From Callorhinchus milii (Eukaryota), in assembly GCF_018977255.1 (NCBI RefSeq), contig NW_024704742.1, positions 90,398,001-90,462,000 of the forward strand: a stretch of DNA of 64,000 nucleotides. Direction: 5' to 3'. The stretch's first letter is position 1; the number at the start of each line of letters is the position of its first letter. Below, piece after piece: positions 1 to 64,000 of this stretch. The notes under the pieces are model-generated. The model did no database searches, was not told where the DNA came from, and was given only the letters and a program-made list of their open reading frames with translations. The position numbers were made by a program, and so were the translations under genes.

Positions 1-580
1 GAACTCTCTCCTCGCCGGCCTTCCCGCCAACTCCCTCCACAAGCTGCAGGTCATTCAGAACTCTGCAGCTCGTGTACTGTCCCGCACCAGGCTTCGCGAC
101 CACATCACTCCCACCCTCGCTCGCCTCCACTGGCTCCCCATCCCCCAGAGGATCGAATTCAAGATCGTCATCTTCACCTACAAGGCCATTCACGGCCTCG
201 CTCCCTCCTACCTCTCCGACCTACTATCCCCCTACCTACCTGCCCGTACCCTCCGTTCCTCTGGCTCCGGTTTGCTCCACATCCCCCGCCCTAACCGCCC
301 TACCATCGGTGGCCGGGCCTTCAGCCTCTCAGCCCCGAGGCTCTGGAACTCTATCCCCCAGTGCCTTCGCCGCCTCCTCCCTCTCCTCCTTCATGGCCGG
401 TCTCAAGACCTTTCTCTTCAACCGAGCCTTCAGCTCCCCTCTCGACCCCCTTCTCGCTCCCTCCCTTCCCTCCCCCTGACCATTTCCCCCCTGCTCGGGT
501 CCCGACCCAACTGTCCAGCGCCTTGGGACGTCCTCCCGACGTGAAAGGCGCTCTATAAATGAAATCTTGTTGTTGTTGTA
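1..580 (+). mobile_element. L2 LINE 3' end, young subfamily A, cut by the window edge
   Basis: ORF2 C-terminal motifs ([40 protein letters not shown]), 3' stem-loop and (TTG)n tail; near-identical to 21249-22167 and 41035-41499. Confidence 0.95.
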
Positions 581-959: not shown

Positions 960-1105
960 TCGGAAATAATTGTGCCACTCTCTGGCTGCGAATCCGGACA
1001 TAGGTGGGGTACATGTACAGAGTTCTCAGTCTGGTTTGGATCTCTTAAGCATGGTTACAGGTTTGCCCACCTGTCAGATACCCGGCTGACCAACAAAATC
1101 TTTGA
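960..1105 (+). mobile_element. 3' fragment of unclassified retroposon family X
   Basis: ctggtttggatctcttaagcatgg...tgtcagatacccggctgaccaacaaaatc matches 12860-12945. Confidence 0.75.
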
Positions 1106-5220: not shown

Positions 5221-5535
5221 AGTCCTGTAGCTCAGTGGTTAGAGCACTCGCTTTGCAAGCGAGAGACCTGAGTTCAATTCCAGGCAGGGCGAAACCTTGG
5301 GCAAGTTTCCTTACTCCACACGCCTAATAATAATCCCTCCAAAACCAAAAACAATAATAAATTGGTCATTTTCAATCTACGACTGTTTGTGGGACATTGC
5401 TGTGCGCAATTGGCTGCCGGTTCGCCCACAAATATACAGTCAATTTACTTTACAGTGTGTTCTGTGAAGCGCTTTGGGACGTCCTCCCGACGTGAAAGGC
5501 ACTATATCAAATGCAAGGATTATTATTATTATTAT
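5221..5535 (+). mobile_element. Full-length tRNA-Ala-derived SINE, short young subfamily
   Basis: A box tagctcagtggttagagc, anticodon arm ctcgc-TTTGCAA-gcgag (TGC), B box gagttcaattcc, Deu-like body, L2-type tail, (TTA)n. Confidence 0.93.
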
Positions 5536-6137: not shown

Positions 6138-6559
6138 GTGTTCAGTGCTATGATCAGGAATAGACAGAAAATGTGACATTTCCTAATCCATTAAATCTGT
6201 TCTGAAATGTCAATTTTTTTCTCTTATCCTTCAAAGATGTAACTGATCGTGTAAGACGACTTGGCAGGATAAAATGTAAGTCATACACCAGCATCTCATT
6301 TGTGATTGGAGTCTGAGTTGCAAATAATGTAGTGACACTTTCCGGTCATAGGAGCCAACTGGATCTCTGCGTCAACGCAACTTATTCCACAACGGAGTAT
6401 CAGCAAGTCAGCATGATTCACCTCCACTTACTGGAAGCAGTCACTGTTTATTTTTCAATCGCTCATTACCAACTATGATTATGAACTCCTTCATATTCCA
6501 CTTCATTGTTTGTTTGCATGCAACAAGGTTTCTTTATATTTCAACATTTTGCTTCAGTC

Positions 6560-6699
6560 ACATTTAAGACAACTTGTTATTAGTGGAAAACAATGCTTTT
6601 CAATGTGTTGGGATGTTTTCCCAATGTGAAAGGCACTATACAAAAGTAATTTGTTGTTCAATAACATTTCAGACTACTTGTTCTTAGTGGAAAACAATG
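6560..6699 (+). repeat. 36-bp direct repeats flanking a ~68-bp L2 tail
   Basis: 6560-6595 vs 6664-6699, 33/36 identical; insert gggatgttttcccaatgtgaaaggcactatacaaaagtaatttgttgtt. Confidence 0.85.
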
Positions 6700-7224
6700 A
6701 CTTTCTCCAACTTTCTGACAAATACCTGGAAGGAACAGTGTTGGGCTGATGTGGTTTGTAACGGTAATAATACACTTACAAGTGATTCTACAGAAGTGGT
6801 GCAACAACCCATGAGATTTTTTTGTTGCAACTTCTCTGTCCCTGCAAAGCATCTGAGGTACAATCTATTTCTGATATTTCAAACAAGCTTCTGCTAAAAC
6901 CAGCACGTATGAATGCACTGACTAAGGTGCAGTTGAACATGCTGTATTACACACGGAGAGAGCCATATGTTCAATGACTCGCACACAGTCAATTAAAGCT
7001 CAGTCTGTTTCTTGCATTTTTTAACGAAGCTACTTCTTTACGCTCCTGCTGCAAGGAAAAGACTGCCCAGATGAAAGTAACCTTCCTCCTCGATTTACAG
7101 GTGAACTACCGAACCACAGGACTGATTCAACAAATTAAAGGAGACTCAATCTTCATGAAAATGTGACTGGCAAACATCTTTGTTTCAGAAAAGACTGCAT
7201 CATTTAAACAATAAAAACAACAGT

Positions 7225-11284: not shown

Positions 11285-11430
11285 TACAAAAAACAACAAA
11301 TTGCATGAATATAGCTCCTTTCACTTCAGGAGGACATCCCCAAGGTAGTGAACAGAGATGGGTGTTGAAGGCAAATGAGGATGGAGGTGGGAGAATGACC
11401 GAAGGCACAGTCAAAGATGTTCTTAAGCAT
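11285..11430 (-). mobile_element. Degraded L2 3' end
   Basis: aacaacaaattgcatgaatatagctcctttcac...ggacatcc is the reverse complement of an L2 tail. Confidence 0.65.
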
Positions 11431-11820
11431 GGTAATGAACTTCCACCTGCAAAGCTGACCAAAAAAAGGCTACTGCAATTCGTTCTTCCAGGAGGTGTCA
11501 CGGATAGTTGTCAGGAGAAAGAACCTGGATGTCCTACAAGAACCATCAACACTCACTATCCAGACTCATTGTATAAAGACATTGGCATGTGTAGAACCTT
11601 GCAATCTGACTCCAGAAGGAGTCAGCAGAATAGGGAGAAAATTGGAAGAGTAAACAATATCAGTACTGACAGGTTTCATAGCCTGGCAATTCACAGTGGT
11701 AGAGATCAGGCTATCCTTTTTCTTCAACTGAGAAAATACATTTTGCTCACATATACACACTTGACATTTTTATCGTTAATCGTTTTAGATTTCATTTTGA
11801 AGCTTTTATCTTGCCTTCAT

Positions 11821-11914
11821 TCAAACAGAGTGGCGGTATATAGCCTGGCTGGGACCCAAGCTTTCTCTCGCTTTTTTCCATGCATGAAGGCAAGCGGCCA
11901 CATCTTCACTGAAT
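11821..11914 (-). CDS. Candidate terminal coding exon of an unidentified gene (FSEDVAACLHAWKKARESLGPSQAIYRHSV*)
   Basis: Strong acceptor ccctgcttctttctcttcag|, 30 open codons with protein-like helical composition, then TGA; repeat-free context; no homology confirmed. Confidence 0.45.
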
Positions 11915-12354
11915 CTGAAGAGAAAGAAGCAGGGTAATGCAGATGTCCAAGTGTTTTTTCTTGTAATCTTATTTTCACGCTTACCTAGTCAACATGAAAT
12001 GGTAATGGGATAACAGTAGGAATGGGGTCAGAAGCATCACATGCAACTGTGAAAGCAGTCTTGAGAGATCAGGTACTGTCGCTTCTCATTAATGAACTCT
12101 CCAGTCACTACTGGAGGTGCTCTGTATAACCGCATTACTGCACCATTTCTCAATATTCTATAGCCTGGAAATAGATATGTGCTCTTACAATGCAGCACAA
12201 GCAGATTTTATTTACAGCTTGTTTGCTCTTCAGGTCACAATGACAGCTTTTTAATAAAGAAATAATGAATGCAGCTGCATTAACAGTTGAGTAATTCATC
12301 CTAGTGGGAAGATATTTAAAGTGTAAGCGAGAATCTATTTGTTCCGTCAAGTGA

Positions 12355-12945
12355 ACATAGCCTAGTCGTTGGTCTCCTTGGAGCTGAACTGGCTCCAAGG
12401 TGACATGCCTGGCAATGGAATTTCGGAATCAAGCCAGCCCTCTGTGGTGGTCTCAGTAGTCTGGTTCCTGAGCCTGGCGGGTCTGCAGTATTCCAGGGCA
12501 CTGCTGATGACAGCATAGGCTCATTGGCAGGACCTGGGAGGGATGACCAAGCACTGCGGGCACCGAGTCATCCCACTCAGCTCCTGTTAATCCTGCAAGC
12601 CAAAGGCCTAATGGGTAGGGTGGTCCTAGCTGGAAAGCTTGCCAGACAGCAATATAAATGGCAAGCTATGTGGTTTTAGCTGGTTGGATTCCAGCAGTAC
12701 CCTAATGCACACTCTGGGATCTCCAAGCCTTGGCTCTTGCCATCCTGCACCTAACAGCTTCCGGAATTAGGTTAGCAGGATGCATCCCTCCAAGGAGAGA
12801 GTATATATTTCCATTCCAACAATCTTTCTCTGGGATTTCCATGTGTAGGTGGGATGCATGGAAATCTCAGCTTGGTTTGGATATGCTTAAGCATGGGGAT
12901 GGGTTTCCGCATATGTCAGACACCCGGCTGACCAAAAAAAAAATG
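12355..12945 (+). mobile_element. Longest copy (~590 bp) of unclassified retroposon family X
   Basis: Segments match 44054-44266, 46826-47262 (minus), 51135-51843 and 61647-61853; ends ggctgaccAAAAAAAAA; 5' boundary uncertain. Confidence 0.75.
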
Positions 12946-13169
12946 TCCCCCCCCGCCACCTTTCTCACCTCTCCTTATGAGAGTGAATCAATGCTGGAGT
13001 ACTGACCCACAGGTGTGGCAGAGTCACACTAAATAGGAAAGTCTCCTATTTAATTTTTAGGCAATAGACAATGGGGCACTATTACTTGCCTTTATGCCTT
13101 AGGATCACTTATGTGGGGAGGACATATCAAAGCACTTCACAACAAGGAGCAGTTAGAGATGATACATCC

Positions 13170-13408
13170 TCTTTATCGCTATCCAGTAACATGGCACTCC
13201 CACAACCCACCCATTGGAATGTGTCCATGTTGGCAAGAGCAAAATTGAGTTTGAGTGTGACGCTCCTCCACAGTTGAATAACCTGCCCACACTCACTGTC
13301 CAGACTCTTGTGAAGAATAGCAACTTGGGTGAGTATGGACACTGAGGCTGAGATACTGGACAGACAACCACAGCAACTGGAACCCCAGCACATGTCAATG
13401 CCTTCAGC
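13170..13408 (+). mobile_element. AmnSINE2-like ancient SINE fragment
   Basis: atcgctatccagt, cactcactgtccagactc..tgaagaatagcaacttgggtgag, aaccccagca..gtcaatgccttcag resemble the recalled AmnSINE2 consensus. Confidence 0.65.
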
Positions 13409-16114: not shown

Positions 16115-17489
16115 CAACTTGCTCTTAAACATCAGTGATGGGAGGAGTGGAGGATAGTGTAGAGAAGTACACAGAGTACATTCTCTCTAGTCATTACGTT
16201 TAGTGTATTTTTCACAATGTGCACAGATAATAGGGCACCTTAGCAAGAACTGGCAAACATGAGAGCAGCTTCCACAATCTCGGGGAGCAGGATTGTGTTT
16301 GGGGGAGTTGTTGCTGGCTTGTTACCAGAGGAGGCACTGTTAAAGACTACAATACAGGTATGAATACGGAGCTCACTCACTCCATCAAGTGAAAATTAAG
16401 TCTCTGAAGTGAATTGTGACACCCAATGCAGTGAAGCTATTATTGATCAAAAAATAAACAGAACCGCTCACACCTGCGAATCCCTGATAAAAGAAATCCA
16501 CTGAGGACTTTGCTGTTCGAGGTTCTTCAGCTTGGGTTAGGTTAAGGCATAAATCCCACGCTCTCATTAACTCCAAAGTACACCTCCCCTCCTTGAAGCA
16601 TGATGAATGCTTTTTTTAAAACAAACTGTGTTTAACAGTATTTTCCTTTTGTATTCTTAATTGCATAACTTCCTTCACACATTATACAAGAGCCCCAGAT
16701 TTGCAACCACAAACATTGGACTCCTTGAGATAGACTCAGTCTCACAAATGTAGCAATTCAACCACAGGACAAAAATGTGGCTGGCAGATATGAAGGCCCC
16801 AGATTTACATCCTGAATCTCTTTCAAAAGAGTGGAGCTGGAAAGTGTTTTCTCTCTGCTCTTCCCCCCACCCCCAAGCTTTCTGTCCTTCAATACAGTGG
16901 AAACTTGCCTCTGTGGCCACTTAAATTATCACACCACGTTTTCACAACTGTTCTTTTCCTAGTGTCAACTGTATCTGCGACTCACTCATGTGAGCAACCT
17001 ACTTTGCAAGCAGTAAATACAATCCCACTCTGGGCAACTACATCTGTGTGAATCAGCCCTTCAGGGATTTATGTGACGACTCTTATGAGCAGGTGGAATG
17101 ACGTAAGTTGAAGGTCCCATTTAAAAACATGGGCCCAAGGCCATTTCTAATTGATGATTGTTACATCCCAGTACATGACTGTCTTAGACAGCGTGCATAT
17201 CCAATGCTCAGGCTGAGAAGAATTCAGTCAATCTCCCCCATCCACACCCCAAATTCCCAACCAGAGTGGTGTCAACTAGCACATTGCTCACATAATGTAT
17301 CTGCCATATCTGCTGTGTGAGGAGAAAAAATCTGGTGTCATGACTCGTGAGCATTCAAATAATTGATGCCACACAATAGGATTTTTTTGTTTAGAAAATA
17401 TTATAAAAAGTAACGCACAAAATAAAAACTACTTATAAATATAAGAGTCAAATAAAGAAGATATCCCCTCTTATGCCTTCCATATCACC

Positions 17490-22830: not shown

Positions 22831-24829
22831 AAATTGTGCCGACAATTTTTTTCTGCAAAATGTAACCCTCACCTTTGCTCTCTCTAAAACAAAGCTGGTT
22901 TACCCAGTCACAGTGTCCACAGGAGAGAACTGTATTGTGGATTTTAATCGTTTTTTAAAAAAAAAATAATATGTAGGTAGCTTCTACGGAAAGCAATGCA
23001 ACCGTATGAGGAGTGTCTGTAACATTCTACCACATCACGTTCTGGGCAGGTCATCTTTGGAGGACGCCATCAGGTGTCCATAATTCAGGTGCAAACATTT
23101 CAGATGCTTGACACACGTTGTTTCTGGCGCAGTACAATGTTAATTCAGTAACCATCTGCAAGTAAAGGGATCTGTCAGATTCATCCAAACCTGATAAATC
23201 CAAAAAAAATCTGCTTCAAGTATAAGAGAATGAATAATTTATACCGAGTAGACCAACATAACCACAACCATCAACTACACGTGGAGTAAACTCATAGAGC
23301 TTAGGGCAATCTTGGGAAACTAAACGTGCACAGTTTGGCTGAGTTTGCAATGCACAGGATTTTAAAATAACACAGAACTGTGTAACATTTCATTTATGGA
23401 TTATCTGATCAGATCTCTATCAGCTGAAAACAGTGACAGAGGAACATGAAGAGTCAGTAATCTTCTTGCTTGATTGGCACAAAATTGTATTTCAGGTGAT
23501 AAGGTTACTTCAAACAGCATTACCAGCACACTGCGGATTCTGATATTTATTTAACCCAGTGATTGCTATCCCCTGAAACATCAACATCTGACAAAGACAG
23601 AGGATTCAACCCAAATAAGCAGATCTCTCATTTAAAAAGAACTATTAAACTACTGTTACCAGTATTTGTGAGCCAAATTTCGACCAGTATCTCTTTCACT
23701 ATTTACTTCCATTATTTCAGAATAATCTTTCGCTATCTATCCTCTCAAAAATTCAGAGTTTTGGAGACTCCCCTCTGAGATCTTCCCTTAACCTTCTTAG
23801 TTTTAGTGGAACAGACCCAATTCTTCCACGTCCACCTTTATAACTGTGATACATCAGAATATCTGTGAGCATTTTCAAGCCTCTGTTGTCAGTATTGTGA
23901 TAAAGGTTCTAGGGGCAGCACAAATCTGGCCCTGTCAATCCATTTCTGTTTACAGCTTGAAAATCTGGGCAACTCCCATAACATAGGACATAATAATTGC
24001 TGGGTTGAGTTTGTATTCAAAAATACCTGGTGCCCTTCAGTAAAGGGAGCAACACAGAGAAGACCATTGCATAATTTTGCAGAAAGTTATTTTACTTTAG
24101 AATAAATGGACGATCAAAGGCAGTGCAGTTTCTTTTTGTAAAATAAATACGAGTACAGAAAATCTGGAACAGATACAGAACCCTTCATGCGCTGCTCCTT
24201 TCTTCTCTCCTGGCTCTCCCATCATCAATCCAACTCCTCACTGATTATTTCAAATGACATGTCGTACAGGGCAACCCCTACTGTGGACCCTGCTACACTG
24301 GAAGCGCATTATGCCTGGCTTCTTGTACTGACTAGTCAGCTTCTCATACTAATAAATGGCTCACTTCCCTGTGACCAGGTTGACACTGACATCAATTGTT
24401 CCTTTTGTAGCACTCAGATTGTAATGGTTGTCTTGCATTTCAAAGTATTTTTACAGCCATTGAAATACAGAAACATTTCTCTGTCACTGCAAATCCCAAC
24501 TGAGTGCCAATGTTCATGCATTTGGTGAGTTTCAATCTGCTATGTAATAAATAGCTCACATTCCGGGAGCTTCACGGACATCTTTCCCCTTTGCTTCTCT
24601 ATTCTTTGAGACTGATAAATAGTTTTAGATTCTCCCCTCAGTAAATGATCAAACTCTTCATAGCTTCTCAGAGCCTGAACATTGTACAACAACTTGTACA
24701 ATGTATATAGCGCACTTCACATAGCACCATATCTGAGCACTTTACAATGATGGGGTTGGATGCTGAGAAAAGAAACTGGGAGAATAGAAGGTCCCCAATT
24801 ACGGCCTAACCAATGCCCTGTATAAACTT

Positions 24830-25150
24830 AATAATAATAATCCTTGCATTTGATATAGCACTTTTCACGTCTTCTAGACGTCTCAAAGCGCTTCACAGAA
24901 TATGCTGTAAAGTGAATTGACTGTATATTTGTGGACGAAATGCGGCAGCCAATTATGCACAGCAGTGTCCCACAAACAGTTGTTGATTGAAAATTACTAA
25001 TTTATTATTGTTTTTATTGGTTTTTTTTGGAGGGGTTATTATCAGGCGCGTGGAGTAAGGAAACTCGCCCAAGGTTTTGCCCTGCCTGGAATTGAACCCA
25101 AGTGTCTCGTTTGCAAGGCGAGTGTTCTAACCACTGAGCTACAGGACTCC
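24830..25150 (-). mobile_element. Full-length tRNA-Ala SINE, short subfamily, TSD aactt
   Basis: Reverse-complement match to 5221-5535; aactt at 24825-24829 and 25151-25155. Confidence 0.93.
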
Positions 25151-26722
25151 AACTTGGTTATATAACTTCTCCAGGTTTGACCTCTATCCAGTAAGTTGTC
25201 ATATACATTCTACTGGAATGAATCAGCTTTGCTCATCATAATCCAGTACCCTAGAGTGCTACATGTAAACACAGTGCACCTTGGGCTAATTCACTGAATA
25301 GTGTGGGGAAAACACATTGGTCATTGTGATCTCAACACGCTCCAGGATTGTAAAGGGATAAACAGGGAGAGCAAGATCCATCACAGTTTCAGTCAGAGCC
25401 TCCACCCTGCAGTAAAATTCAAGTCACGTGCCTGCTGCAAGCTCGTGCCCTCCGCCACCACCACCCACACATCACACAAACAACAACAGATCCAGAGCAA
25501 TTACAAATGCAAAGCAGTTGTGACAGCTTCAATTACCAGAGCAAACATCTGTGCAGCCTTTTAATTGGAATCATACATTTTTATGAGGCATAGTCCAAGT
25601 CATGTTTCAATCAATGTAAAATCAGTGGGGTTACTAAAGGTGCAAGCTGGGTGTCTCCCCACATGACTACAACCACCATTTAGGCACTGCAGCAAGTGTA
25701 ATGGTCAATTGGCTTATTTATTAACACAGGAACTACAATCGTGGGCATTGAAGAGTTCTGGTCAGAATCGAGATACAATTCAACAGTAGTAGGAGTACCT
25801 TCAGGGCTCACATTTCCACCTCCTTTCCACCAAACCCTATCTGGGAGTTCACTTCCCACTGTTACAATCTGCTGCGTTTACTGAGCAAGTTTGATTCGAA
25901 TTAAACCAACTCTGGCAGTTTGGCTTCCTTCCTGTGTATGTTAAACTGTGCTCTGTCTTACATCCACGGGAAGCCAGGTCAACACTGCTTAAAGATTTTT
26001 CTTGATAGAGCTGGTTATATCAGGTAACCGTTCTTGCCTTCTGCACCTCAAAAGAAAACACACTTTCAAAGTACAAGGTTTTTTGTTGCTTTGCTTTACA
26101 AGTTTAGCACTGACAGTGACATTGTGGCACATGATATTATTATTGTTTCCTTTATTGCTCTTGATTCTGGACTCCTCTTCTTGAGGTTTTACAGTACATC
26201 TCCTCTTTCAATGGTAAAATGACTCCCTTATTGTTCCTCACCAAAACCACCACACAACTGGAACTGGAAGACTTTAACGCTATGACCCAGACTGAGATTG
26301 TAGCAGTGTCAGCTGACTGCAGAGCTTCCTTTTTTTGGAGGGGGGGGGGTGTGGATGGAAAGTACCACCATATTAGGATGTTCTTAGGCGTGCTCACATC
26401 AAGGAACAGCCTGACCCAAAACCTCAGCTGTAGCGCTTGCACATTGCCTACAGAGATAATTTCATGCTGCAGGAAACACTACATCTGTTTCACTGTGACA
26501 CAATGGCAGATATCAAACCCTTCTCCACTTAGGAACCAAGGATAGTGCTCCTCAGCCCTTTTTTTCTCCCTTTAAATATACTCCTCACTGCTGGATAACA
26601 ATGGAATTGATATGCAGAATCGCATGGGATGTGTTGAAGGGAGATCAACAAATACGTAAAGTGAAATTATGACGGGATTTGGAGAAAATGTGGGCAACTG
26701 GGATTAAAAAATCTACCTTCAT

Positions 26723-34106: not shown

Positions 34107-34352
34107 AAACCTTGGGCAAGTTTCCTTACTCCACACGCCTAATAATAATCCCTCCAAAACCCAAAACAATAATAAATTGGTCATTTTCAATCTACGACTG
34201 TTTGTGGGACATTGCTGTGCGCAATTGGCTGCCGCGTTCGCCCACAAATATATAGTCAATTCACTTTACAGTGTGTTCTGTGAAGCGCTTTGGGATGTCC
34301 TCCCGACGTGAAAAGCGCTATATCAAATGCAAGGATTATTATTATTATTATC
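34107..34352 (+). mobile_element. 5'-truncated young tRNA-Ala SINE inside an older SINE tail, TSD acagtaaac
   Basis: Near-identical to 5293-5535; acagtaaac at 34102-34110 and 34353-34361. Confidence 0.92.
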
Positions 34353-37300
34353 ACAGTAAACTGCTGTGAAGTGCTTTGCAATATCCTCCTGATGTGAAAG
34401 ACTCAATGTCAAACACAATGATAGTATTATTATTATTAATAATAATAATAGTCCCTTGATTGAAGACTATTTTCACATTATTCACTGAGGTGTTCAAATG
34501 TCTTCAAAGTCAGGGCTAAATGCATTTTTCTTGAACTATAAAAAAGATAATTTGCACCTATGCCACACAGATATTTTACATCACATTGTAGAAATGTTAT
34601 AGTAATGGGAAAGTACATTGTCTTGTAAAAAAAAGACAAATCTAAACAATGTTTAGAAGGAAAGAGAACAAATAGGAAATCTACAATTTGTTTTTGGAAC
34701 ATTGGGAGATGAGCAATAGATTCAGAACAGTGTGTGAACAACACATAAATCCAGGCCTCAGGTTTCTGTGGCAAAGTACAAGTAAATTCCACACAACTCA
34801 TAAGATTATAAGTATATCTTCTGGCCGTCACAAATACAATAGATTCAGAATTTCATCTAAAAACTTCACTCATTCAATCCAAAGCAATTTAAAAAGCAAC
34901 AATGTTATGGGTTTACATTTAACTTATTCTCAGCCTCCTTTAGAGCAGCATTCATCTTTTGGCCTAGGTTGCAATAAGCCGTGCACTCTATGGTGCAATG
35001 TAAAACTAGGCCATGAACGACTCATTCCTGCATTGCAGCTTTTCTTTATGCAGCTACTGTATGCTGTACCTGCATCAACAGACCAAAGGGAGAACTCTCT
35101 AATCGGACAAACCACATTCAGTCCATTTCTCCATTCAAACTACTGTGACAATTGTTCAAGGCAATGGTCAATTTTTTTTGATGTTTGAGATCATCGCACT
35201 GTTCCTGCTAACATCTGCCTGTGCTAACTTGAAGAGAAATTTTGCACATTGTGTAATAGTGCACACCGGGGAGGTTTGATTGTTGGTCTAACTCCAACAG
35301 TTCACCATTTGTTTTCAGTGCAACAAAGCATTGACCGGCAGCCTATGCCATTAAAGTGTGTCGTTAAATAAATGTAGTGCTTCACAACAGTGATCTCAAT
35401 CAATTTGCAGCATGCTATTGTGTCAGAGCACTTCTTTTGTGGGTCATTTTGCTAGCCTTTGCGCTTATGCTCCACAGATATTTTACATTGCATTGTAGAA
35501 ATGTTATAAATGGGAATAATGGGAAAATACAGTATGTACTGGGCTGGCCTGCCCATTCAGTTGGACATATCTACAGCTCTATGGTATTGTGGATGACTGT
35601 GAGCCTGAATGGCTTTTCTAGACATCATTTAGCCTCACCTCCCTCACAAGGAAGACAAGTAATTCTTTAGGAATGATACTCATTTGATTCACCCAAAAGG
35701 GTGAAATACCGATTGAGATGGGTCGATAAAAATAATAATCCTTGCATTTGATATAGCGCCTTATGGATGTGAATCCAGAACCTTAATGTAGACCATTCAA
35801 GCATATATATATACACACACACAAACACACTATATCTGTATTATGTAGTGTATAGATATAAATAGGTATATGCAAATTTAATTACAATTACACTTATCTG
35901 ATTGAAAGTCTTGTATTTGAACAGGAATTTTCCTATTACCTGGTTTCAACAAAGTGAAGGTATGGATAACTGAAGTTGGGATTGAACAAGACCAAAGATG
36001 CTTTTTTGTTTATGCTTAAGAGAATCATCTCAATTCATTTATTCGGTTCCATTTCTCAATTTACACTATGAAGAAGAAATTTATGGGGGGCGGGAGGGGC
36101 ATGTAAATTCACATCCCCTCCCCCAAATTTCTACTTCATATAATATAGATGTTATATGGAATAGAAAATAATTTTAAAGCAAACAACAGAATTGTACTCA
36201 AAAGATTAATGGAGCTAGAGAGATGCTTTTGAAATCTAATCATTCTGATCTAGATTTGAACCCAAGGCCTAAATCTGTTTGCACAGATTTCTGGCTTGCC
36301 CGGCCAGTTCTGAGCAAACTAGAACACTGTTTTGTTGCAGTGTTAGAAACATATAACAGTTTGCAGCTTGTTTTACTCTCTTTACATTGGTCTTAAGTAG
36401 AGCACACTAAACATAGACAATCCTCCTAATGAGTTATTAATGCACGACTGATTTGCACAATCTTCGCAAAGCAGCCAACATACACAGCTGGAACTAAGTG
36501 TCCTCCGAATCAACCTACACAGCACAACCCTAGAAACCCATGAGATGAGATTGCCTTCAGCATCCAGCACAACACACAGCACTGACAGCTACATCCTGAA
36601 TGTTGTAGCACACAAAATGCTGCACTAGATCTGAAGACAAAAATAGCATGTCTGAGATATCTACTGGTTTCCAATAGATTTCTGCAACAGAACCTACAAA
36701 TTAAAGGGGACATTCCTAAAAATCTGCTTTTCAAAGTTTTTTTCATTTACATTAGTCTAAGCAGGGCACACAACACATAGACAATTCTTCTAATGAGTTA
36801 CTAATAGGCTAACTGTTAGGACACAGTTAGGGCAATTAGTGTAGGACAGTCAAAATATTACATTTTACACTCAACGATAAAAACAAGACTTTGGATTGTA
36901 AAATAAGAACAATTTATTAAGTTCTCCTACTCTGTTTGCTCCCACCTTAATAAACCCTCTAGTGCAATTTTTAAAATCTGAGCTGGTTCAGTTTGGGAAG
37001 TTTGGGTTGATTTGACACAGGTGTAACTCTGTATTCTGATCCGTGGTGTTGACACTTGAAAGAAACATCTCAAGCTGATACACAGGAATTGTGAAGGGCC
37101 CGGAATAGTACCTGCCCCCATTTCCTACAAGACTGATCACCATAGTAAAGTCATGAGCAGGTTCATTCCAGCTACATCCATGGAGACAGAAAGACACAAA
37201 TACAGTACAAATCCAACTCATTACGCCACAGAAATATTCCCTTTGAAAGGTTTTGAAAAGAATGGCTTTATGAAAAAACTGAAGCAAGTGACTTGTAATA

Positions 37301-39650: not shown

Positions 39651-41565
39651 TCATAGAATCATAGAATTATACAGCACAGAAGGAGGCCATTTGGCCCATC
39701 GTGACTGTGCCGACTCTTTGAAAAGAGCTACCCAATTCAATCCCACTCCTGCGCTCTCTCCCCATAGTACTGCAAACTTGTCCTCCCCAAATAATTATCT
39801 GCTTCTCTCTTAAATATTATCGAATCGGCCTCCACCACCCTTTCAGGCAATGCATTCCAGATCCGAACAACTCGCTGTGTGAAAAAATTTCTCCTCACCT
39901 TCCCTCTATTTCTTTTAACAACTATTTTAAATCGGTGCCCTCAGGTTACCGACCCACCCACCAGTGGAAGTAGTTTCTACTTGTTCACCCTATCGAATCC
40001 CCTCATAATTTTGAAAACTTCTATTAAGTCTCCTCTTTACCTTCTCTGCTCCAAGGAGAATAATCCTAGCGTCTCCAGCCTCTCCTGATAGCTGAAGTCC
40101 CTCATTCCTGGTACCATCCTGGTAAATCTCCTTTGTACCCTTTCAAATGCCTTGACATCCTTCCTAAAGTGTGGGGCCCAGAACTGAACACAGTCTCTAG
40201 CTGAGGTCTAACCAGTGTTTTATAAAAGTTCATCATAACTTCCTGACTTTTGTATTCTATGCCCCTATTTATAAAGCCTAGTATCCCACTTGCTTTTTTA
40301 ACAGCTTTATCTACCTGTCCTGCCACCTTCAAAGATTTACTTATATGAATCCACAGGTCTCTCTATTCCTTCACCCCCATTAAGATTGTACAAGCTAGCC
40401 AATATTGCTTCTCCTCATTCTTCCTCCCAATATCCATCACTTCGCATTTCTCCACATTAAACTTCATCTGGCACGTGTCTGCCCATTTTACCAGTATGTC
40501 TATGTCCATTTGCAGTCTGCTACTATCCTCCTCACTGTTTACTACATTTCCTCAGTATCAAACATGGAAATTGTACTCCCTATACCCAAGTCCAGGTCAT
40601 TTATATAGATTAAAAACAGCAGTGGTCCCAATACTGATCCCTGGGGGACACCACTGCACACTTCCCTCCAGTCAAAAAAAACAACCGTTCACCACTACTC
40701 TCTGCTTTCTCCTTCCCAACCAGTTCTGTATCTATGCTGCCACTGTCCATTTAATACCGTGGGCTTCAATTTAGCTTACACGTCTCTTATGTGGCACTTT
40801 ATCAAACGCCTTTTGAAAATCCATATAAACTACATCAACTGGACCAGGTTCATCCACCCCCTATAATAATAATAATAATATCCCACTTGCTACTTCATCA
40901 AAAAACTCTATCAGGTTTGTTAGACCTGATTTGCCTTTAACAAGTCTGTATTGGCTGTCCTTTATTAACCCATATTTTTCTAAGTGAAAACTTATTTTGT
41001 CCCGGATTATAGTCTCTAGAAGTTTCCCCACTACAACAACAACAACAACAACAAGATTCCATTTATAAAGCGCCTTTCACGTCAGGAGGACGTCCCAAGG
41101 CGCTGCACAGTTGGGTCAGGACCCGAGCAGGGGGGAAATGGTCAGGGTGAGGGGAGGGAAGGGAGGGAGCGAGGAGGGGGGAAATGGTCAGGGTGAGGGG
41201 AGGGAAGGGAGGGAGCGAGGAGGGGAAGAGAGTCGAGAGGGGAGCTGAAGGCTCGGTCAAAGAGAAAGGTTTTGAGACCGGCCTTGAAGGAGGAGGGGAA
41301 GGAAGCAAGGCGAAGGCACCGGGGGATGGAGTCCCAGAGCCCGGGGGCTGAGAGGCTGAAGGCCCGACCACCAATGGTAGGGCGGTTGGGGCGGGGGACG
41401 TGGAGCAGACCGGAGCCGGAGGAACGGAGGGTACGGGCAGGTAGGTAGGGGGATAGTAGGTCAGAGAGGTAGGAGGGAGCAAGGCCGTGGATGGCCTTGC
41501 TACTGACGATAGGCTGATTGGCCTGTAGTTCCTGGGTTTACCCTTCTGCCCCGTTTTGTATAGTG
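39651..41565 (-). mobile_element. CR1 LINE (second subfamily), ~1.45 kb, interrupted by an L2
   Basis: [55 protein letters not shown]; tail (tctatgat)n at the left end. Confidence 0.95.
41035..41499 (-). mobile_element. Young L2 subfamily A 3' end, TSD ctac, with an internal 46-bp tandem duplication
   Basis: Reverse-complement match to ~180-580; ctac at 41031-41034 and 41500-41503. Confidence 0.95.
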
Positions 41566-43615: not shown

Positions 43616-44053
43616 TCGCTTTCCTCTAATAATAATCCTTACATTTGATACAGTGCCTTATTACACCATCAAGACTTGTTTTCAAAGTATTTATTGTAAA
43701 GTGCCTGTATATTTTGTGGGCGATGGTGGAGCAACACATAGCCCTAGGAGGCAGTGGAACAGTACTTAAGCTCCCATAAGAAAAAACATCAGAAGCTAAA
43801 CAATTTCATCTACAATCATTTAAACTACAATTAGTTCACCGAAAGCTATGATTCCTCAGCAGGTTTCAAAGGAAGGAAAATACAGCAGCTGAATAAAGGG
43901 TTGTGAAAGCAACGTACCGCACAAGAAAGATTTTCTTGATTGATAGTGTTCTCGAAACTAAACATTCTGAAAATGTTTTGTCATAATCTAGCAGCTTGTG
44001 TTTTACAGAAAATGCTGGAAAAAAAAGATTGATCAGCATCCAAAAGAGAAGAG

Positions 44054-44266
44054 AGGTTTTCCAAACTCACGGCTCTCACCAACCTGCACCTAATACTCTC
44101 TGGATTTAGGTCATCAGGGTGCATCTCTCCAGGGAGAGAGCGACATTTCATTCCAGACACAGTGAAATCTCCATGGGTAGCTGGCATACATATCTGTGAA
44201 ACTCCGTTTGCTTTGGATACTCTTAAACATAGTGATGGCTTCCCATCTGGCTCACCAAAACAAAAT
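44054..44266 (+). mobile_element. Family X copy flanked by ~95-bp direct repeats
   Basis: Matches 12720-12945; repeats at 43958-44052 and 44267-44363. Confidence 0.8.
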
Positions 44267-44494
44267 CTAAACCTTGAAAATGTTTTGTCATAAATAATCC
44301 AGAATTTTTTTTAAAAAACGAAAATGCTGGAAAAAATTCAATCAGGATTCAAAAAAGAGAAGAAATAATAATGTTTAGGGTTTGACCTTTCATGAGGTTT
44401 AATGAGGGAATGATGTACAAAACATTAATCCATCTCCATTGGCTGCTGGGTGATCTGCTGCCCACTTGCAGTGTTTGTTAATAACTGTGTTTCG

Positions 44495-46825: not shown

Positions 46826-47262
46826 AATTTTTTGTGGCCAGCTGGGTGTCTGACACATGCGGAAACTGTGCTTAAGAGTATTCAAACTAGACAGAGTTCC
46901 ACGTAGTGTATGTATATCACCTACATATGGATATTTGTCTGTTTGTCAGGCTGGCTCCGTTGGTAGCATTCTCACCTTTGAGACAGAGGTTGTAGATTCA
47001 AGCCCCACATCAGGACTTGGAACTCATCTAGTCTTATGTTGACACTGCAATGCAGTGCCACAGGCATGGTGCATTGTCAGAGGTGCCATTCTTCAGATGA
47101 GACATTAAACTGAGATACTATGGTACTATTAAAAAGAGAAGGGACCACCCATTCATTACCGCTTGGTTTGCAGGATTAACCAGGGCAAACTGAAGAATCC
47201 CCAATCCCAGTGCCCCTCCAAGTCCTGCTGATGAGCCAGGCTGGCAGTTCTGTCAACAGCCC
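46826..47262 (-). mobile_element. Family X copy interrupted by a Deu-SINE 5' part (46946-47140, plus strand)
   Basis: 46826-46936 is the reverse complement of the family X 3' end; 47140-47262 is the reverse complement of 12500-12627. Confidence 0.75.
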
Positions 47263-48225: not shown

Positions 48226-49467
48226 ACGGAAGTAATAAACACAATAAGATAGTGTGACATTTAACAAGAAGCTGGGTGGACAATTGCTCAGTCTTTGAAT
48301 AGATAGGGTAATAGCTATGTGTCATGAAAAGCCTGTTAGCAGCTCTAACAGAACAGCATATAAGGGATCTAACTTAACAGTAAATGTGTCTGGTGAAATC
48401 CTTTGAGGCACCATTTCTCATTATCACATCATCCTAACTGCAGCATTTCACACCTATAAGTTGCTGACGTGTGATGGTCAGACTCATAAGAGAGAAGAGA
48501 CCGCTGAGAAATGAGTGCAAAGAAGATGTTCGTGTTTTAATTTTGCTGGGGTTCTGCTAATGTCCTTGAAACCGAGTTTACCCCAAATCCTTTCAAGTCA
48601 TCTGAATGGTGAGCTGACCATGAGTAGACTGTGTTATCAAATCAGGTTGGATATAATGGGAGCAGCAAGAGCAGACTCAACTCACACAATAACCAACCCA
48701 ACTCACCCTGGGATAGCAGCAGTTCACTAACTTTGATATACTTCTCACATCAGGAGGAGGACTCAAAGTGCAGGATATACTCATAGTATAGCGACTGTGT
48801 TTTTTGTAGGTGAATGCATTATGAAATAACACAAATTACATCCTGATGTTCCTTTATTTTTCCTTTGAGTCTCTTGTATTTAATCAATTAGGATCCTTTT
48901 TTTAAGAACTTAACCAAATGCGACAGTATCTAAAATGCTGAAGTGCAAAAATTGTGAAGTCTGGTGAATCAATAATATCAACCAGATGATTTGCATTTAG
49001 TCCACATATATAATTTGTCTCGAAACACAAATGTTTATAAGGCGGGTGCCCTGTGGACTGTTTCTTACCAATCCTAATTATGTAAAACATTTAATTACTC
49101 TCCATTATCTGTACAATTATCAATAAAGCTCCAACACCCACACTCAAGTCTGAGATCTGATGGGAACCAAAAAGCTGATATTCTATCAGATTCACCAGAT
49201 AAACAATTCTGTGGGTGTCTTGCAGGAAAAAAGATTGCCGGGCATTCAAATCACCAACAGTGAAACAAAACAAAAGAGAAAGGGAATCTTTGAATTCTTT
49301 GCTAAAGGGTTGCCCTTGGAATGAAAAATATCAAACTAATCGACTTAGTTTAACGAGAGAGAGAAAAATAAGGGCTATTAAGTAAAGCAGAAAGATTTTA
49401 ATTTTTAGGCTTCTGAGGAAAATACTAAAACAGTTGGTATCTTCCCCAGAAGTCTAAAAATTAAAGG

Positions 49468-50617: not shown

Positions 50618-51134
50618 GTATCGTTGACACTTAGGGTTAGGGTGCCAGGGACGAGCAGGAGGCCAGTACCAGTCGAATGGTGGTACTGGGTGGTGGATTG
50701 GGGAATGAGGAGGTCGGAGAGGTAGGGAGGTGGAAGAAGGCAGTGCTGGTCAGGGGCCAGATGTGGGAGAGGAAGGACAGCTGGGGATCGAACCCAGACA
50801 CTAACTATGGGCAATAAATGTTGGCCATGATGTTTTGAATATACAGTAGAATCTGCTTTTAGACCTAGCTCTTTGACTACACCTATGGTCACCTCCCTGT
50901 CGTTCTACGTCTAACGCTGCCACTGTGCTGCACTCTGAGATGCGTATCTACATGAAGGGTGCTATATAAATGTTGCTTATCCAAGTGTCCTGTGGACTGT
51001 TTCTTACCAATCCCAATCATTTCAAACATTTAATTACTCTCCATTGTCTGTACATATATTAATAATGCATTAAGACAACTTGCCAGTGAAGTGATGAATG
51101 AAGCCATTAAAACATCCACTTTATCTTTTTTCGC

Positions 51135-51843
51135 CCCTGAGACCAAGCATCCACTCAGTGTGTTGACAACCCTAGTAATGGGGGAAGAATAATAGTAATC
51201 CTTGCATTCAATTTAGTGCCTTATCACACCACTGAGACGTCTCTAAGCACTTCAATACTGCAGTAACTGTCTACTTGAAGGTGAATGTGGCACCCAATAT
51301 ACACATAGCAAAGTCATAGGAATATCCATGAAGTGAATGACCATTTTATCTGGGGGATTGTTGGTCAGGACACCAGGAGAAACTCCATTCTCTTTTTGAA
51401 TAGTGCCAGGGGATCTATAGGGTATAGGGTTCACCTGAACAGGACATTGAATTAATGTCTCATCCAAAGAACGTCAGCCAGGACTGTGAGCTCAAAATCC
51501 TGATATGGGACTTGAACCCACAAGCTTCTGACTCAGAGGCTCCACCAACTGAACCAGGCTGTTACTGAGCGCAGAGTGGGGTTTACAAAAGACAGTCTCA
51601 ATGACAAACTCTGCTGTTTTAGCTGGATAAACTCCAACATTAGCTCAACGTACCCTCTGAGGTCCCAACCTTTGCTTTTGACAACCTGCACCATATACTC
51701 TCTGGAATTAGGTAAGCAGGGTGAGTCCCTTCAATCAGAGAGTGCACATTCCATTCCAGATACACAAAAATGTCCATGTGTGGTTTGGGTTCTCTTAAGC
51801 ATACTGCTGGGTTTCCTGCTTGTGTCAGATGCCAGAAAAAAAA
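51135..51843 (+). mobile_element. Family X copy interrupted by a Deu-SINE (51188-51562, minus strand)
   Basis: gttttagctgga, acctgcacc..ctctggaattaggtaagcagggtg, ctcttaagcat..tgtgtcagatgcc-A-run match 12630-12945. Confidence 0.7.
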
Positions 51844-55154: not shown

Positions 55155-55232
55155 TTTTTGTTTGGTTAGCTGGCTGCCTGACACCTGCAGAAACCTATCA
55201 TTGTGTTTAAAATAATCCAAACCAGACTAACT
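55155..55232 (-). mobile_element. Family X 3' fragment
   Basis: ttttgtttggttagctggctgcctgacacctgcagaaacctatca..atccaaaccagact. Confidence 0.7.
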
Positions 55233-56039
55233 GTGATTATCGGGTATCATCTCCAACCACAATCAATTACTAAAATAGCAGATTCCTCCCTCTCCCTCTG
55301 CCCTTTTTACTGCTCTCACTCAGTGCCTAAATGTTTACTCGTGTTTCATACATCACTTGTTGCAGTGAAGTCAAGGTGACCACTACCAATAAAGTGCAAA
55401 TTAAAAACAAATTGAAACAATCATTCAAAAATAACTCACCTAAAGGAATAGCAGTGCTGCCTTGAATTCAAATATGCTGGCTTTCGAACAGTGTCTTGTG
55501 TCAAGATTGTTGGAGTCAGAGGAATGGGCAAGTTCTCCGCTTATATTGCTTTAACAACTAATTAGCTTTCGATTTATAAACCTCCGAACCAGATAGAGCG
55601 ACAAATCAAATTGGAATGAATTCAAAGGAGAGCTCTGGGTGACAGCGATAATCATAATTTATTGTTTCCCACAGCAGCACAGATTTCACAATCCTCTGTT
55701 AATGAAATAGCCTCTGGTTTTCGAGGACTGTGCTCTGGCAAAAGCTCTTCAAGGCTTCCTCTCGGACATATCACAGTACTATCAATTCAAACAGTGCCAT
55801 GTTGCACCAAGAATAAGCAGATCACCAGGCCAGGGCAAGAAGGGGGTGGGTGGGGATAGCATGGACCGGGTCAGAGCAAGAGGAGGTGGGAGGGAACGGG
55901 ACTGCGCTGGAGCAAGAGAGGAGGGTATGCTACATGTACAGAATACAGAGCAAAGGAGGGATAACCGTGAGTGTCATCAAAACAAATGTGGGACCAGCAA
56001 TATCAGGACAAAACACTTGAAATTCGCAACACGCTGTCA

Positions 56040-58653: not shown

Positions 58654-59390
58654 CAGGCTGGCTCAGTTTAATAATAATAATAATAATCCTTGCATTTAAT
58701 ATAGCGCTTTTCACGTCGGGAGGACGTCCCAAAGCGCTTCACAGAACACACTGTAAAGTGAATTGACTGTATATTTGTGGGCGAACGCGGCAGCCAATTG
58801 CGCACAGCAATGTCCCACAAACAGTCGTGGATTGAAAATGACCAATTTATTATTGTTTTTTTTTGGAGGGATTATTATTAGGCTCTGTGTGGAGTAAGGA
58901 AACTTGCCCAAGGTTTCACCCTGCCTGGAATTGAACTCAGGTCTCTCACTTGCAAAGCGAGTGCTCTAGCCACTGAGCTACAGGTCTCCACAGTTTGTAG
59001 CATTCTCACTACTGAGTAAGAAAGTTGTGGGTTCAAGTTCCACATCATGACTTGGACTTCATATAGAAGTGTGCTTCATTGTCAGAGGTGCCATCCTTCC
59101 AATGAGATGTTAAATTGAGGTCTCGTCTGTCTGTCCAGATGGATGTTGAAGATACCATGGCACTCTTTGAAAAGAGAAGTGAGTTTCTCCCAGGTGACCA
59201 ACCCAATAAACCCCAAATAAACTCCATGGGTGGTTGTGGCATATTGCTGTGCACATTGGCTGCTGCGTTCACTCACAAAATACAGTCACACCACTTTACA
59301 GTATATCCTGTGAACCAATTTGATAATGATGTGATATGGCACTATAACAAAAGTAAGGATTATTATTTCTTCGATTATTATTATTATCTT
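58654..59390 (+). mobile_element. Deu-domain SINE split in its A box (58654-58669 and 58991-59390)
   Basis: The halves rejoin as caggctggctcagtttgtagcattctc. Confidence 0.85.
58670..58990 (-). mobile_element. Full-length young tRNA-Ala SINE, TSD cagttt
   Basis: Reverse complement near-identical to 5221-5535; cagttt at 58664-58669 and 58991-58996. Confidence 0.95.
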
Positions 59391-61646: not shown

Positions 61647-61853
61647 GGGATGTCAGCCTGAGACAATCCAAAATTAAAAGTTCTTGTATCCTTGTTCCTA
61701 AATTCTCCAGTTACTAGGTAAGCAGGGTTCATCGCATAAAAAAAATTCCATAAAATAACAGTAAATTCCATACCTATATTGAACTCGCAGTTTAGATCAT
61801 CTTAAGCATGGTGATGGATTTCCAGTGTGTCAGACACTTGGCTAACAAAAAAA
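61647..61853 (+). mobile_element. Family X 3' fragment with degenerate ~30-bp flanking repeats
   Basis: taggtaagcagggttcatc; tcttaagcatggtgatggatttccagtgtgtcagacacttggctaacAAAAAAA. Confidence 0.7.
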
Positions 61854-63392: not shown

Positions 63393-63706
63393 CAGTCCTG
63401 TAGCTCAGTGGTAAGAGCACTCGCCTTGCAAGTGAGAGACTGGGTTTGATTCCTGGCAGAGCGAAACCTTGGGCAAGTTTCCTTACTCCACACGCCTGAT
63501 AATAATCCCTCAAGAAAAAAAATTATAATAATTTGGTCACTCAATCCACAACTGTTTGTGGGACATTGCTATGCGCAATTGGTTGCCTTGTTTCGCCCAC
63601 AAATATACAATCAATTCACTTTACAGTATATTCTGTGAAGCGCTTTGAGACATCTAAAAGACATGAAAAGCACTATATTAAATGCAAGGATTATTATTAT
63701 TATTAT
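63393..63706 (+). mobile_element. Full-length tRNA-Ala SINE, short subfamily
   Basis: Collinear with 5221-5535. Confidence 0.92.
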
Positions 63707-64000
63707 GAGCTGCTTGACGAGTCTTTGGCTTGATCTGACAACAGCTGCGGCAGGAAGGAGGCAGCATACTGAAAAATTAAACATTCATTTGGCCAATTAA
63801 AATAAAATCGACTGGGAGATACAGAGGATTACACAACAAAGCATGACCAGCACTTAGTGGAATAATATGCAAAAATGCAAAAATGGCATTCTTAATGCAG
63901 TTGAGCCAACTGTGAACATCCAAACGGAATGATTCAGAACAGACAATTACAGACCATGCACATTTACATTTAACATCAGGAGGATGTTCTAAGGCACTTG

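What the first reader, a model, noticed from the sequence alone, without database searches (positions are those of the whole stretch)
12355..12945. Unclassified ~590-bp retroposon family (X) with at least 7 copies in 64 kb
Seen: copies at 960-1105, 12355-12945, 44054-44266, 46826-47262 (-), 51135-51843, 55155-55232 (-) and 61647-61853, with weaker ones at ~17175-17280 (-) and ~25640-25690 (-). All end at about the same point (...tgtcagacacccggctgacc + A-run) but have variable 5' ends, which is the signature of target-primed reverse transcription. It resembles none of the L2, CR1, Deu or AmnSINE2-like repeats here, and two copies are interrupted by Deu-SINEs, so it is old. The 5' end of the longest copy has a degenerate A-box-like tagcctagtcgttgg, a hairpin (ccttggagc/gctccaagg) and a weak B-box-like tttcggaatc. 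Inference: a SINE or non-autonomous element using a LINE partner other than L2 or CR1. I cannot tell whether it is already catalogued.
Basis: partly seen in the sequence, partly recalled or inferred. Interest (0 to 1): 0.7.

Follow-up and report, generated by a model that had tools for sequence, protein, structure and literature searches.

The report
Old hairpin-rich retroposon tails, chimaera-type genome
This is a real, very abundant and old jumping-gene repeat of about 600 bases, with a fixed A-tailed back end and a ragged front end; it is likely the non-coding tail of an unnamed LINE rather than a tRNA-type SINE, so it is probably ordinary genomic debris whose parent element is still unidentified.

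Summary
The family is real. All 7 main copies are confirmed and an 8th stub was found at 11416-11468. The two weak copies are not confirmed. Laying four public runs at 80% likeness placed 8,679-41,357 contigs each on 12050-13250, with summed depth almost wholly within 12371-12942. The 3' end is fixed, depth rises about 4-5-fold from 5' to 3', and this insertion is shared by three organisms about 12-13% diverged. One copy has a ~95-100 bp target-site duplication, so retroposition is supported. The longest copy is itself 5'-cut: hundreds of contigs share 17 more bases (G-run), preceded by a non-random T-rich signal. Best reading (0.55): truncated, hairpin-rich 3' UTRs of an old non-L2/non-CR1 LINE in a likely holocephalan genome. 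Main rival (0.33): a free-standing ~620-nt non-autonomous element starting at the G-run. Parent ORF, clade and Dfam/Repbase status could not be tested. The scan noted a similar ~630-bp hairpin repeat elsewhere in this genome (e1-7812807); identity with it is not verified.

The parts
12371..12944 (+). Longest copy (c2): chain of hairpins, 3' stem-loop, 10-base A-run; itself 5'-truncated by at least 17 nt
   Evidence: loose ends at 12371 and 12941/12942; fold z -4.5
12372..12406 (+). First hairpin of the family as present in c2
12916..12944 (+). Shared 3' terminus: 5-bp stem with 8-nt loop, then short A-run; no AATAAA upstream
12358..12368 (+).
   Evidence: table 3 (depth 7.8 at 12345 and 12363 in X1)
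968..1100 (+). 3' copy c1 (~130 bp)
11416..11468 (+).
44054..44266 (+). 3' copy c3 (~210 bp)
43955..44052 (+). Left copy of a ~95-100 bp target-site duplication of c3 (right copy 44264-44363, 73% identical)
   Evidence: 0 of 150 null pairs as good
46826..47262 (-). Copy c4: family 5' piece 47262-47141 and 3' piece 46942-46826, split by a Deu-type SINE head (46943-47140, opposite strand); ~210 bp of the family lost; candidate ~28-bp duplication borderline
   Evidence: 8 of 150
51135..51843 (+). Copy c5: 3' piece 51566-51843 firm; left piece 51135-51175 weak; full SINE on minus strand between them
55155..55250 (-). 3' copy c6 (~95 bp)
61665..61853 (+). 3' copy c7 (~190 bp)

Best explanation
These are dead, 5'-truncated retroposon copies that share one fixed A-tailed 3' end, most likely the long (over 600 nt), hairpin-rich 3' UTR of an old, abundant LINE that is neither of the L2 nor CR1 families seen in this window. 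Inferred mechanism: the LINE protein bound the structured 3' end of its own RNA, primed reverse transcription at a nick in A-rich target DNA, and usually stopped after 50-600 nt, so most copies hold only UTR. Shown: fixed 3' end, ragged 5' ends, one long target-site duplication, very high copy number, age, strong folding of the longest copy, no pol III head. Inferred: that an ORF2 lies upstream, that the hairpins serve RNA recognition, and the clade.
For: Fixed 3' end: loose ends pile up at 12941/12942 (448+394 contigs in X1, 93 in X5, 188 in X8) with flank agreement 0.33-0.35, near the 0.30 of random flank. Peak depth climbs 5' to 3' in all four runs (X1 107k at 12378-12418, 194k at 12583-12623, 468k at 12829-12869). 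Only 1 of 8 window copies reaches 12371. c2's start is not the family's start: 621, 443 and 330 contigs in X1, X8, X13 carry the same 17 further bases (7 G, then AGGTAAGCGG). The 13 consensus letters beyond are 29 T, 7 G, 2 C, 1 A of 39 over three runs, whereas random flank gives A and T equally and 0 of 300 simulations had at most one A; this fits shared T/G-rich sequence blurred by a variable G-run. No tRNA, 5S, 7SL or snRNA head; pol III boxes at chance level. Target-site duplication at c3.
Against: No ORF was linked to the repeat: no copy in the window extends past 12371, and three protein searches with translations of c2 found no true relative. The consensus beyond the G-run differs between runs while internal loose ends agree between runs, and the overall agreement of 0.46-0.47 equals the 0.47 expected for 17 shared plus 13 unshared letters. 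Depth in the 5' hairpin bin is as high as or higher than in the last 3' bin in X1, X8 and X13, and flattens between 12378 and 12500. True SINEs in this window are also often cut to ~110-bp tails, so truncation does not separate LINE from SINE. Summed contig depth is no copy number.
Confidence: 0.55

Rival explanations
1. A free-standing non-autonomous retroposon of about 610-630 nt whose true 5' end is the G-run: either a bipartite LINE derivative (5' UTR joined to 3' UTR by internal deletion, as described for RTE, Ingi, Vingi and R2) or a SINE-like element with a non-canonical head, copied in trans by a LINE that recognises its 3' stem-loop.
For: Shared sequence stops being reproducible 17 nt upstream of 12371 in three runs; agreement 0.46-0.47 fits a true end. 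Hundreds of contigs reach the 5' hairpin. No coding trace in c2. Bipartite non-autonomous LINEs are an established class (PMC5786205). Four of 8 tails carry a C inside the A-run, reminiscent of the (CAA)n ends listed for animal RTEs.
Against: The letters beyond the G-run are T-rich far beyond random flank (0 of 300), which a true end explains only with an added target preference. No pile-up of full-length copies in the window (1 of 8). No match of 4 of 5 short motifs in the one readable supplement of PMC5786205, the fifth a chance 9-mer.
Confidence: 0.33
2. A conventional pol III SINE with a decayed tRNA-derived head beginning near 12355.
For: A word with one mismatch to the A-box at 12358 and weak box-like words downstream; length and A-tail fit a SINE.
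Against: The 12358 word is single-copy flank. Inside the element the best pair is met in 168 of 1000 random windows, while the window's true SINEs score 0/0 and 1/1 mismatches. Rfam and ARAGORN find tRNA heads on other SINEs of the window but not here.
Confidence: 0.05
3. Not a retroposon but a hairpin-rich non-autonomous rolling-circle or DNA element that inserts at T/A runs, the A-run being target sequence.
For: Short A-runs of 7-10 bases, many hairpins, one fixed and one ragged end; 6 of 8 copies show no detectable duplication.
Against: A ~95-100 bp duplication abuts both ends of c3; no terminal inverted repeat seen in the fold or self-comparison; this genome type is described as almost wholly shaped by retroelements (PMC4350176).
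Confidence: 0.05

Closest known systems
Stringent-type LINE 3' tails with a terminal stem-loop (L2/CR1-type LINE-SINE pairs; review PMC3747384, passages seen)
   Same: Fixed 3' end with a small stem-loop just before a short terminal repeat, no AATAAA, heavy 5' truncation.
   Different: No sequence similarity to the window's L2, CR1 or SINE tails; ends in an A-run rather than (ATT)n; the non-coding part is about 600 nt of consecutive hairpins.
Bipartite non-autonomous LINEs of RTE, Ingi, Vingi and R2 (Kojima 2018, PMC5786205; two parts of the main text read, one supplement searched)
   Same: Non-coding, a few hundred nt, no pol III head, LINE-type 3' end.
   Different: No parent LINE identified; no motif match in that paper's supplement; whether the element has a fixed 5' end is unresolved.
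CmiSINEs (SINE2-1_CM, SINE2B-1_CM) and SacSINE1-CM of Callorhinchus milii (PMC5499810; one part of the text and passages read)
   Same: Same kind of genome: the window holds tRNA-Ala-headed SINEs with L2-type tails and Deu-type SINEs, which the paper describes for the elephant shark.
   Different: The family shares neither head, body nor tail with them and is older than at least one Deu-type insertion.
L1/Tx1-group LINE 3' UTRs
   Same: A-tail, duplication starting in the A-run, G-rich tract near the start of the UTR (G-tract of L1 UTRs is recalled, from no call).
   Different: No AATAAA and only 7-10 A; the one clear duplication is ~95-100 bp against 7-18 bp cited for L1 (PMC6007223); no ORF available to place it.

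Membership tests
Non-LTR retroposon (TPRT product) | Fixed 3' end with A-rich or microsatellite tail | tested here: met
   7 of 8 window copies; loose-end pile-up at 12941/12942 with random flank behind
Non-LTR retroposon (TPRT product) | Variable 5' truncation | tested here: met
   8 different 5' ends; depth gradient in four runs
Non-LTR retroposon (TPRT product) | Target-site duplication | tested here: met
   1 of 8 clear (c3, 0 of 150 nulls), 1 borderline (c4, 8 of 150), 6 none
tRNA-derived SINE (SINE2) | tRNA-like head with A and B boxes | tested here: not met
SINE1 / SINE3 / SINEU | 7SL, 5S or U1/U2-derived head | tested here: not met
   No such Rfam match at E up to 10 over 12200-13100; the 17 family bases missing from c2 were not scanned
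CmiSINE / SacSINE1-CM | Shared L2-type 3' tail and CORE or Deu body | tested here: not met
   No BLAST similarity to the window's copies of these SINE types; Repbase consensus itself not available
Autonomous LINE (3' UTR remnant) | Shared sequence continuing upstream of the repeat | tested here: inconclusive
   17 shared nt, then a T-rich but run-discordant consensus
Autonomous LINE (3' UTR remnant) | ORF2 with RT upstream of the tail | not testable with these tools
   No genome held; no longer copy in window or collections
L1/Tx1 group | TSD of 7-18 bp (PMC6007223) and poly(A) tail, in L1 usually with AATAAA (recalled) | tested here: inconclusive
   No AATAAA; only clear TSD is ~95-100 bp, but 49- and 84-bp duplications also flank L2-type tails in this window, so length is not diagnostic here
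L1/Tx1 group | RT phylogeny | not testable with these tools
   No ORF linked to the repeat
RTE clade and its SINEs | (CAA)n-type tail, TSD starting with A, T-stretch about 10 nt upstream of the TSD (PMC6007223) | tested here: inconclusive
   C inside the A-run in 4 of 8 copies, c3 duplication starts in A's; too few TSDs to test the T-stretch
Bipartite non-autonomous LINE | 5' and 3' parts match the two ends of one autonomous LINE | not testable with these tools
   No parent LINE or Repbase access; motif search of the PMC5786205 supplement negative
Any named Dfam/Repbase family | Full-length match to a catalogued consensus | not testable with these tools
   Neither library is held; full-text search for 4 motifs gave 5 unrelated papers

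The most novel reading that the evidence does not exclude
A holocephalan retroposon of about 620 nt, in tens of thousands of copies, with no pol III head at all: it starts at a G-run, is built end to end from hairpins, and is mobilised by a third, unnamed LINE lineage through a 3' stem-loop. That would be a SINE-scale success of a non-canonical head or of a bipartite LINE derivative outside the four clades known to make them.
Probability: 0.2. Interest if true: 0.55.

Novelty: new member of a known kind. Interest (0 to 1): 0.28.

Why it matters
The elephant shark genome is described as dominated by L2, CR1 and their SINEs (PMC5381603, passage seen). A third lineage at roughly one copy per 8 kb in this window, shared by at least three related organisms, adds to that picture and gives presence/absence markers for chimaera phylogeny. 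If it is a LINE tail, the point of interest is only the unusually long, strongly folded UTR. If it proves to be a free-standing element without a pol III head, it would show another way for a short RNA to reach SINE-like copy numbers.

Tried and rejected
No whole genome is held, so the genome-wide consensus and end plots could not be made; one read-laying run stood in for them. Motif scans found nothing in metagenome contigs or GTDB genomes; 2 viral-contig hits were chance matches. Protein searches with translations of c2, meant to catch ORFs crossing the 5' boundary: none, and one hit that is a repetitive-protein artefact. Pfam on 102 of 135 stop-to-stop ORFs of 78 aa or more: only RT fragments, at places that BLAST or their translation tie to the L2/CR1-type repeats, plus one sub-threshold chance hit; none in a family copy. 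Rfam: nothing at gathering score or E below 0.4. Consensus folding of the 3' ends gave no covariation, 0 of 6 pairs, and the six shorter pieces do not fold better than shuffles (z -1.2 to +0.3); the folding signal rests on c2 alone. Long TSD as a marker of RTE machinery was rejected: 49- and 84-bp duplications flank L2-type tails in the same window. Expression: no RNA holder listed; X5 is only guessed to be RNA and also covers flank, so it shows nothing on transcription. X8 and X13 lack cover at 12952-13033, which proves nothing. No empty-site joint was among the 15 joints shown of 2316. Sequence look-ups in earlier findings gave no look-alike. Nine paper searches found no description of this family; supplements of PMC5499810 could not be read and may bear on naming, as may Repbase entries such as SINEX-1_CM listed in PMC3747384.

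Full report
Observation. A single-sequence search with window 12300-13000 finds all six other main copies (nhmmer E 3.7e-25 to 1.3e-6). Aligned identity to the longest copy (c2) is 60-71%. A profile of these copies adds an eighth, 55-bp stub at 11416-11468 that was not in the training set (E 2.6e-4; the reversed-window control gave a best E of 3.2; 0 of 300 shuffles). The two weak copies fail: 16 of 300 and 2 of 300 shuffles on regions chosen after the fact, with no BLAST or profile hit. Seven of 8 copies end at the same motif plus 7-10 A; c5 ends about 9 nt short. c4 is split by a Deu-type SINE head and has lost ~210 bp of the family; c5 holds a full SINE, but its left piece is only weakly supported. 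The family has no similarity to the L2, CR1 or SINE repeats of the window.

Genome-wide view. No assembly is held. Twenty of 24 listed runs hold part of 11900-13400; I laid four of them, from four studies and three organisms, on 12050-13250 at 80% likeness. 41,357 (X1), 8,679 (X5), 25,063 (X8) and 18,707 (X13) contigs were laid. Depth is about 0-95 in most flank bins and 1e4-6e5 between 12378 and 12951. The family is therefore present in tens of thousands of contigs; summed depth is no copy number, and one copy per 8 kb in this window is the only direct density. Loose ends pile up at 12941/12942 with flank agreement 0.33-0.35, close to the 0.30 of random sequence: the 3' end is fixed. One contig each in organisms B and C bridges the flank-element junction with 61 differences in 465 and 42 in 355 letters, so this insertion predates their split from organism A.

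The 5' end. Family cover starts at 12371; at 12345 and 12363 only the locus's own contig is laid (table 3). Inside the element the best A/B pair is of a quality met in 168 of 1000 random 100-nt windows, while the window's real SINEs score 0/0 and 1/1 mismatches (box motifs recalled). Rfam and ARAGORN see tRNA heads elsewhere in the window but nothing here. c2 is itself truncated: 621, 443 and 330 contigs in X1, X8 and X13 continue with the same 17 bases, a run of 7 G and AGGTAAGCGG. Beyond that the three runs disagree, and the overall agreement of 0.46-0.47 is what 17 shared plus 13 unshared letters would give. That argues for a true end, and was my reading. Against it, the 13 further letters are 29 T, 7 G, 2 C and 1 A of 39, where random flank gives A and T equally (0 of 300 simulations; the 3' flank consensus is indeed A/T-mixed). 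Either some copies run on into shared T/G-rich sequence, blurred by G-run length, or there is a T-rich target preference. Peak depth rises 4-5-fold from the 5' hairpin to the 12829-12869 bin in all four runs, and only 1 of 8 window copies reaches 12371. I ran the T-bias test after seeing note e1-7812807, which reads a ~630-bp hairpin repeat of the same density in this genome as a LINE 3' UTR; I could not link that note to this sequence and do not count it as support.

Structure and target sites. c2 folds well below its shuffles: z -3.4 globally and -4.5 with local pairs, lower than all 43 control windows of 575 nt (lowest -4.25). Loose-end consensus letters near 12634 and 12809 show, by eye, further stems that c2 has partly lost. 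The shorter copies do not fold better than chance and the 3' ends show no covariation, as expected of old dead copies; a function for the hairpins is inferred, not shown. c3 is bracketed by a 95-100 bp duplication that starts in the A-run and ends at the 5' junction (0 of 150 nulls); c4 has a borderline 28-bp candidate (8 of 150); 6 of 8 have none. Long duplications also flank L2-type tails in this window (49 and 84 bp), so they do not name the partner.

Host and literature. The window's tRNA-Ala-headed and Deu-type SINEs fit the CmiSINE and SacSINE1-CM description for the elephant shark, where CmiSINEs were not found in the sharks and skate assayed (PMC5499810, part 2 of the text; passages). 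Earlier notes also call this genome elephant shark. A holocephalan host is likely, not proven. Papers seen: PMC5786205 (text parts 2-3; one supplement searched); passages only of PMC9004415, PMC5753468, PMC3747384, PMC6007223, PMC4494074, PMC4350176, PMC5381603, PMC12952989 and PMC1845163. None of these passages describes this family. PMC1845163 mentions ten early consensus repeats, among them three LINE-like and one unknown, which I could not compare. Dfam and Repbase are not available, so the family may well be catalogued.

Mechanism and verdict. Shown: an old, very abundant, 3'-anchored, 5'-truncated, A-tailed repeat with at least one target-site duplication and no pol III head. Inferred: target-primed reverse transcription by a LINE protein that reads the 3' stem-loop. 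Most likely these are tails of that LINE itself (0.55); a free-standing ~620-nt non-autonomous element starting at the G-run remains a serious rival (0.33); a decayed tRNA-SINE (0.05) or a non-retro element (0.05) is unlikely. It is a new, or at least here unnamed, member of a known kind. Interest is modest (0.28) and would rise to about 0.55 if an assembly shows a fixed G-run start with no parent ORF.

Noticed in passing
window 6553-6601 and 6657-6705: A 49-bp direct repeat (86%) brackets a ~50-bp L2-type tail: a long target-site duplication on an L2-type insertion.
   Followed up: partly
window 49046-49129 and 50985-51068: An 84-bp direct repeat (88%) brackets a 1.85-kb composite of L2 pieces that ends in an L2-type tail.
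   Followed up: partly
window 34551-34611 / 35458-35516 and 36381-36441 / 36746-36805: Two ~61-bp direct repeats (85-87%) each bracket a stretch (about 850 and 300 bp) with no other match in the window; possibly old unidentified insertions with long duplications.
   Followed up: no
window about 13075-13156: A second short repeat fragment: depth 700-900 against 6-50 in neighbouring bins in three runs; no match elsewhere in the window.
   Followed up: no
window 5221-5535, 24829-25151(-), 34107-34351, 58671-58992(-), 63394-63708: tRNA-Ala(TGC)-headed SINEs with L2-type (ATT)n tails, the youngest 95-97% alike; they fit the CmiSINE description and point to a holocephalan genome.
   Followed up: partly
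window 1-575: An L2 3' fragment folds almost as far below its shuffles (z -4.25) as the family's longest copy.
   Followed up: no
window 41124-41244: A 46-bp tandem duplication inside an L2 3' end.
   Followed up: no
run X13, joint 12912 to 12385: One contig holds a 3' end of the family followed after a short spacer by another copy starting near the 5' hairpin: a tandem insertion (table 5c).
   Followed up: no
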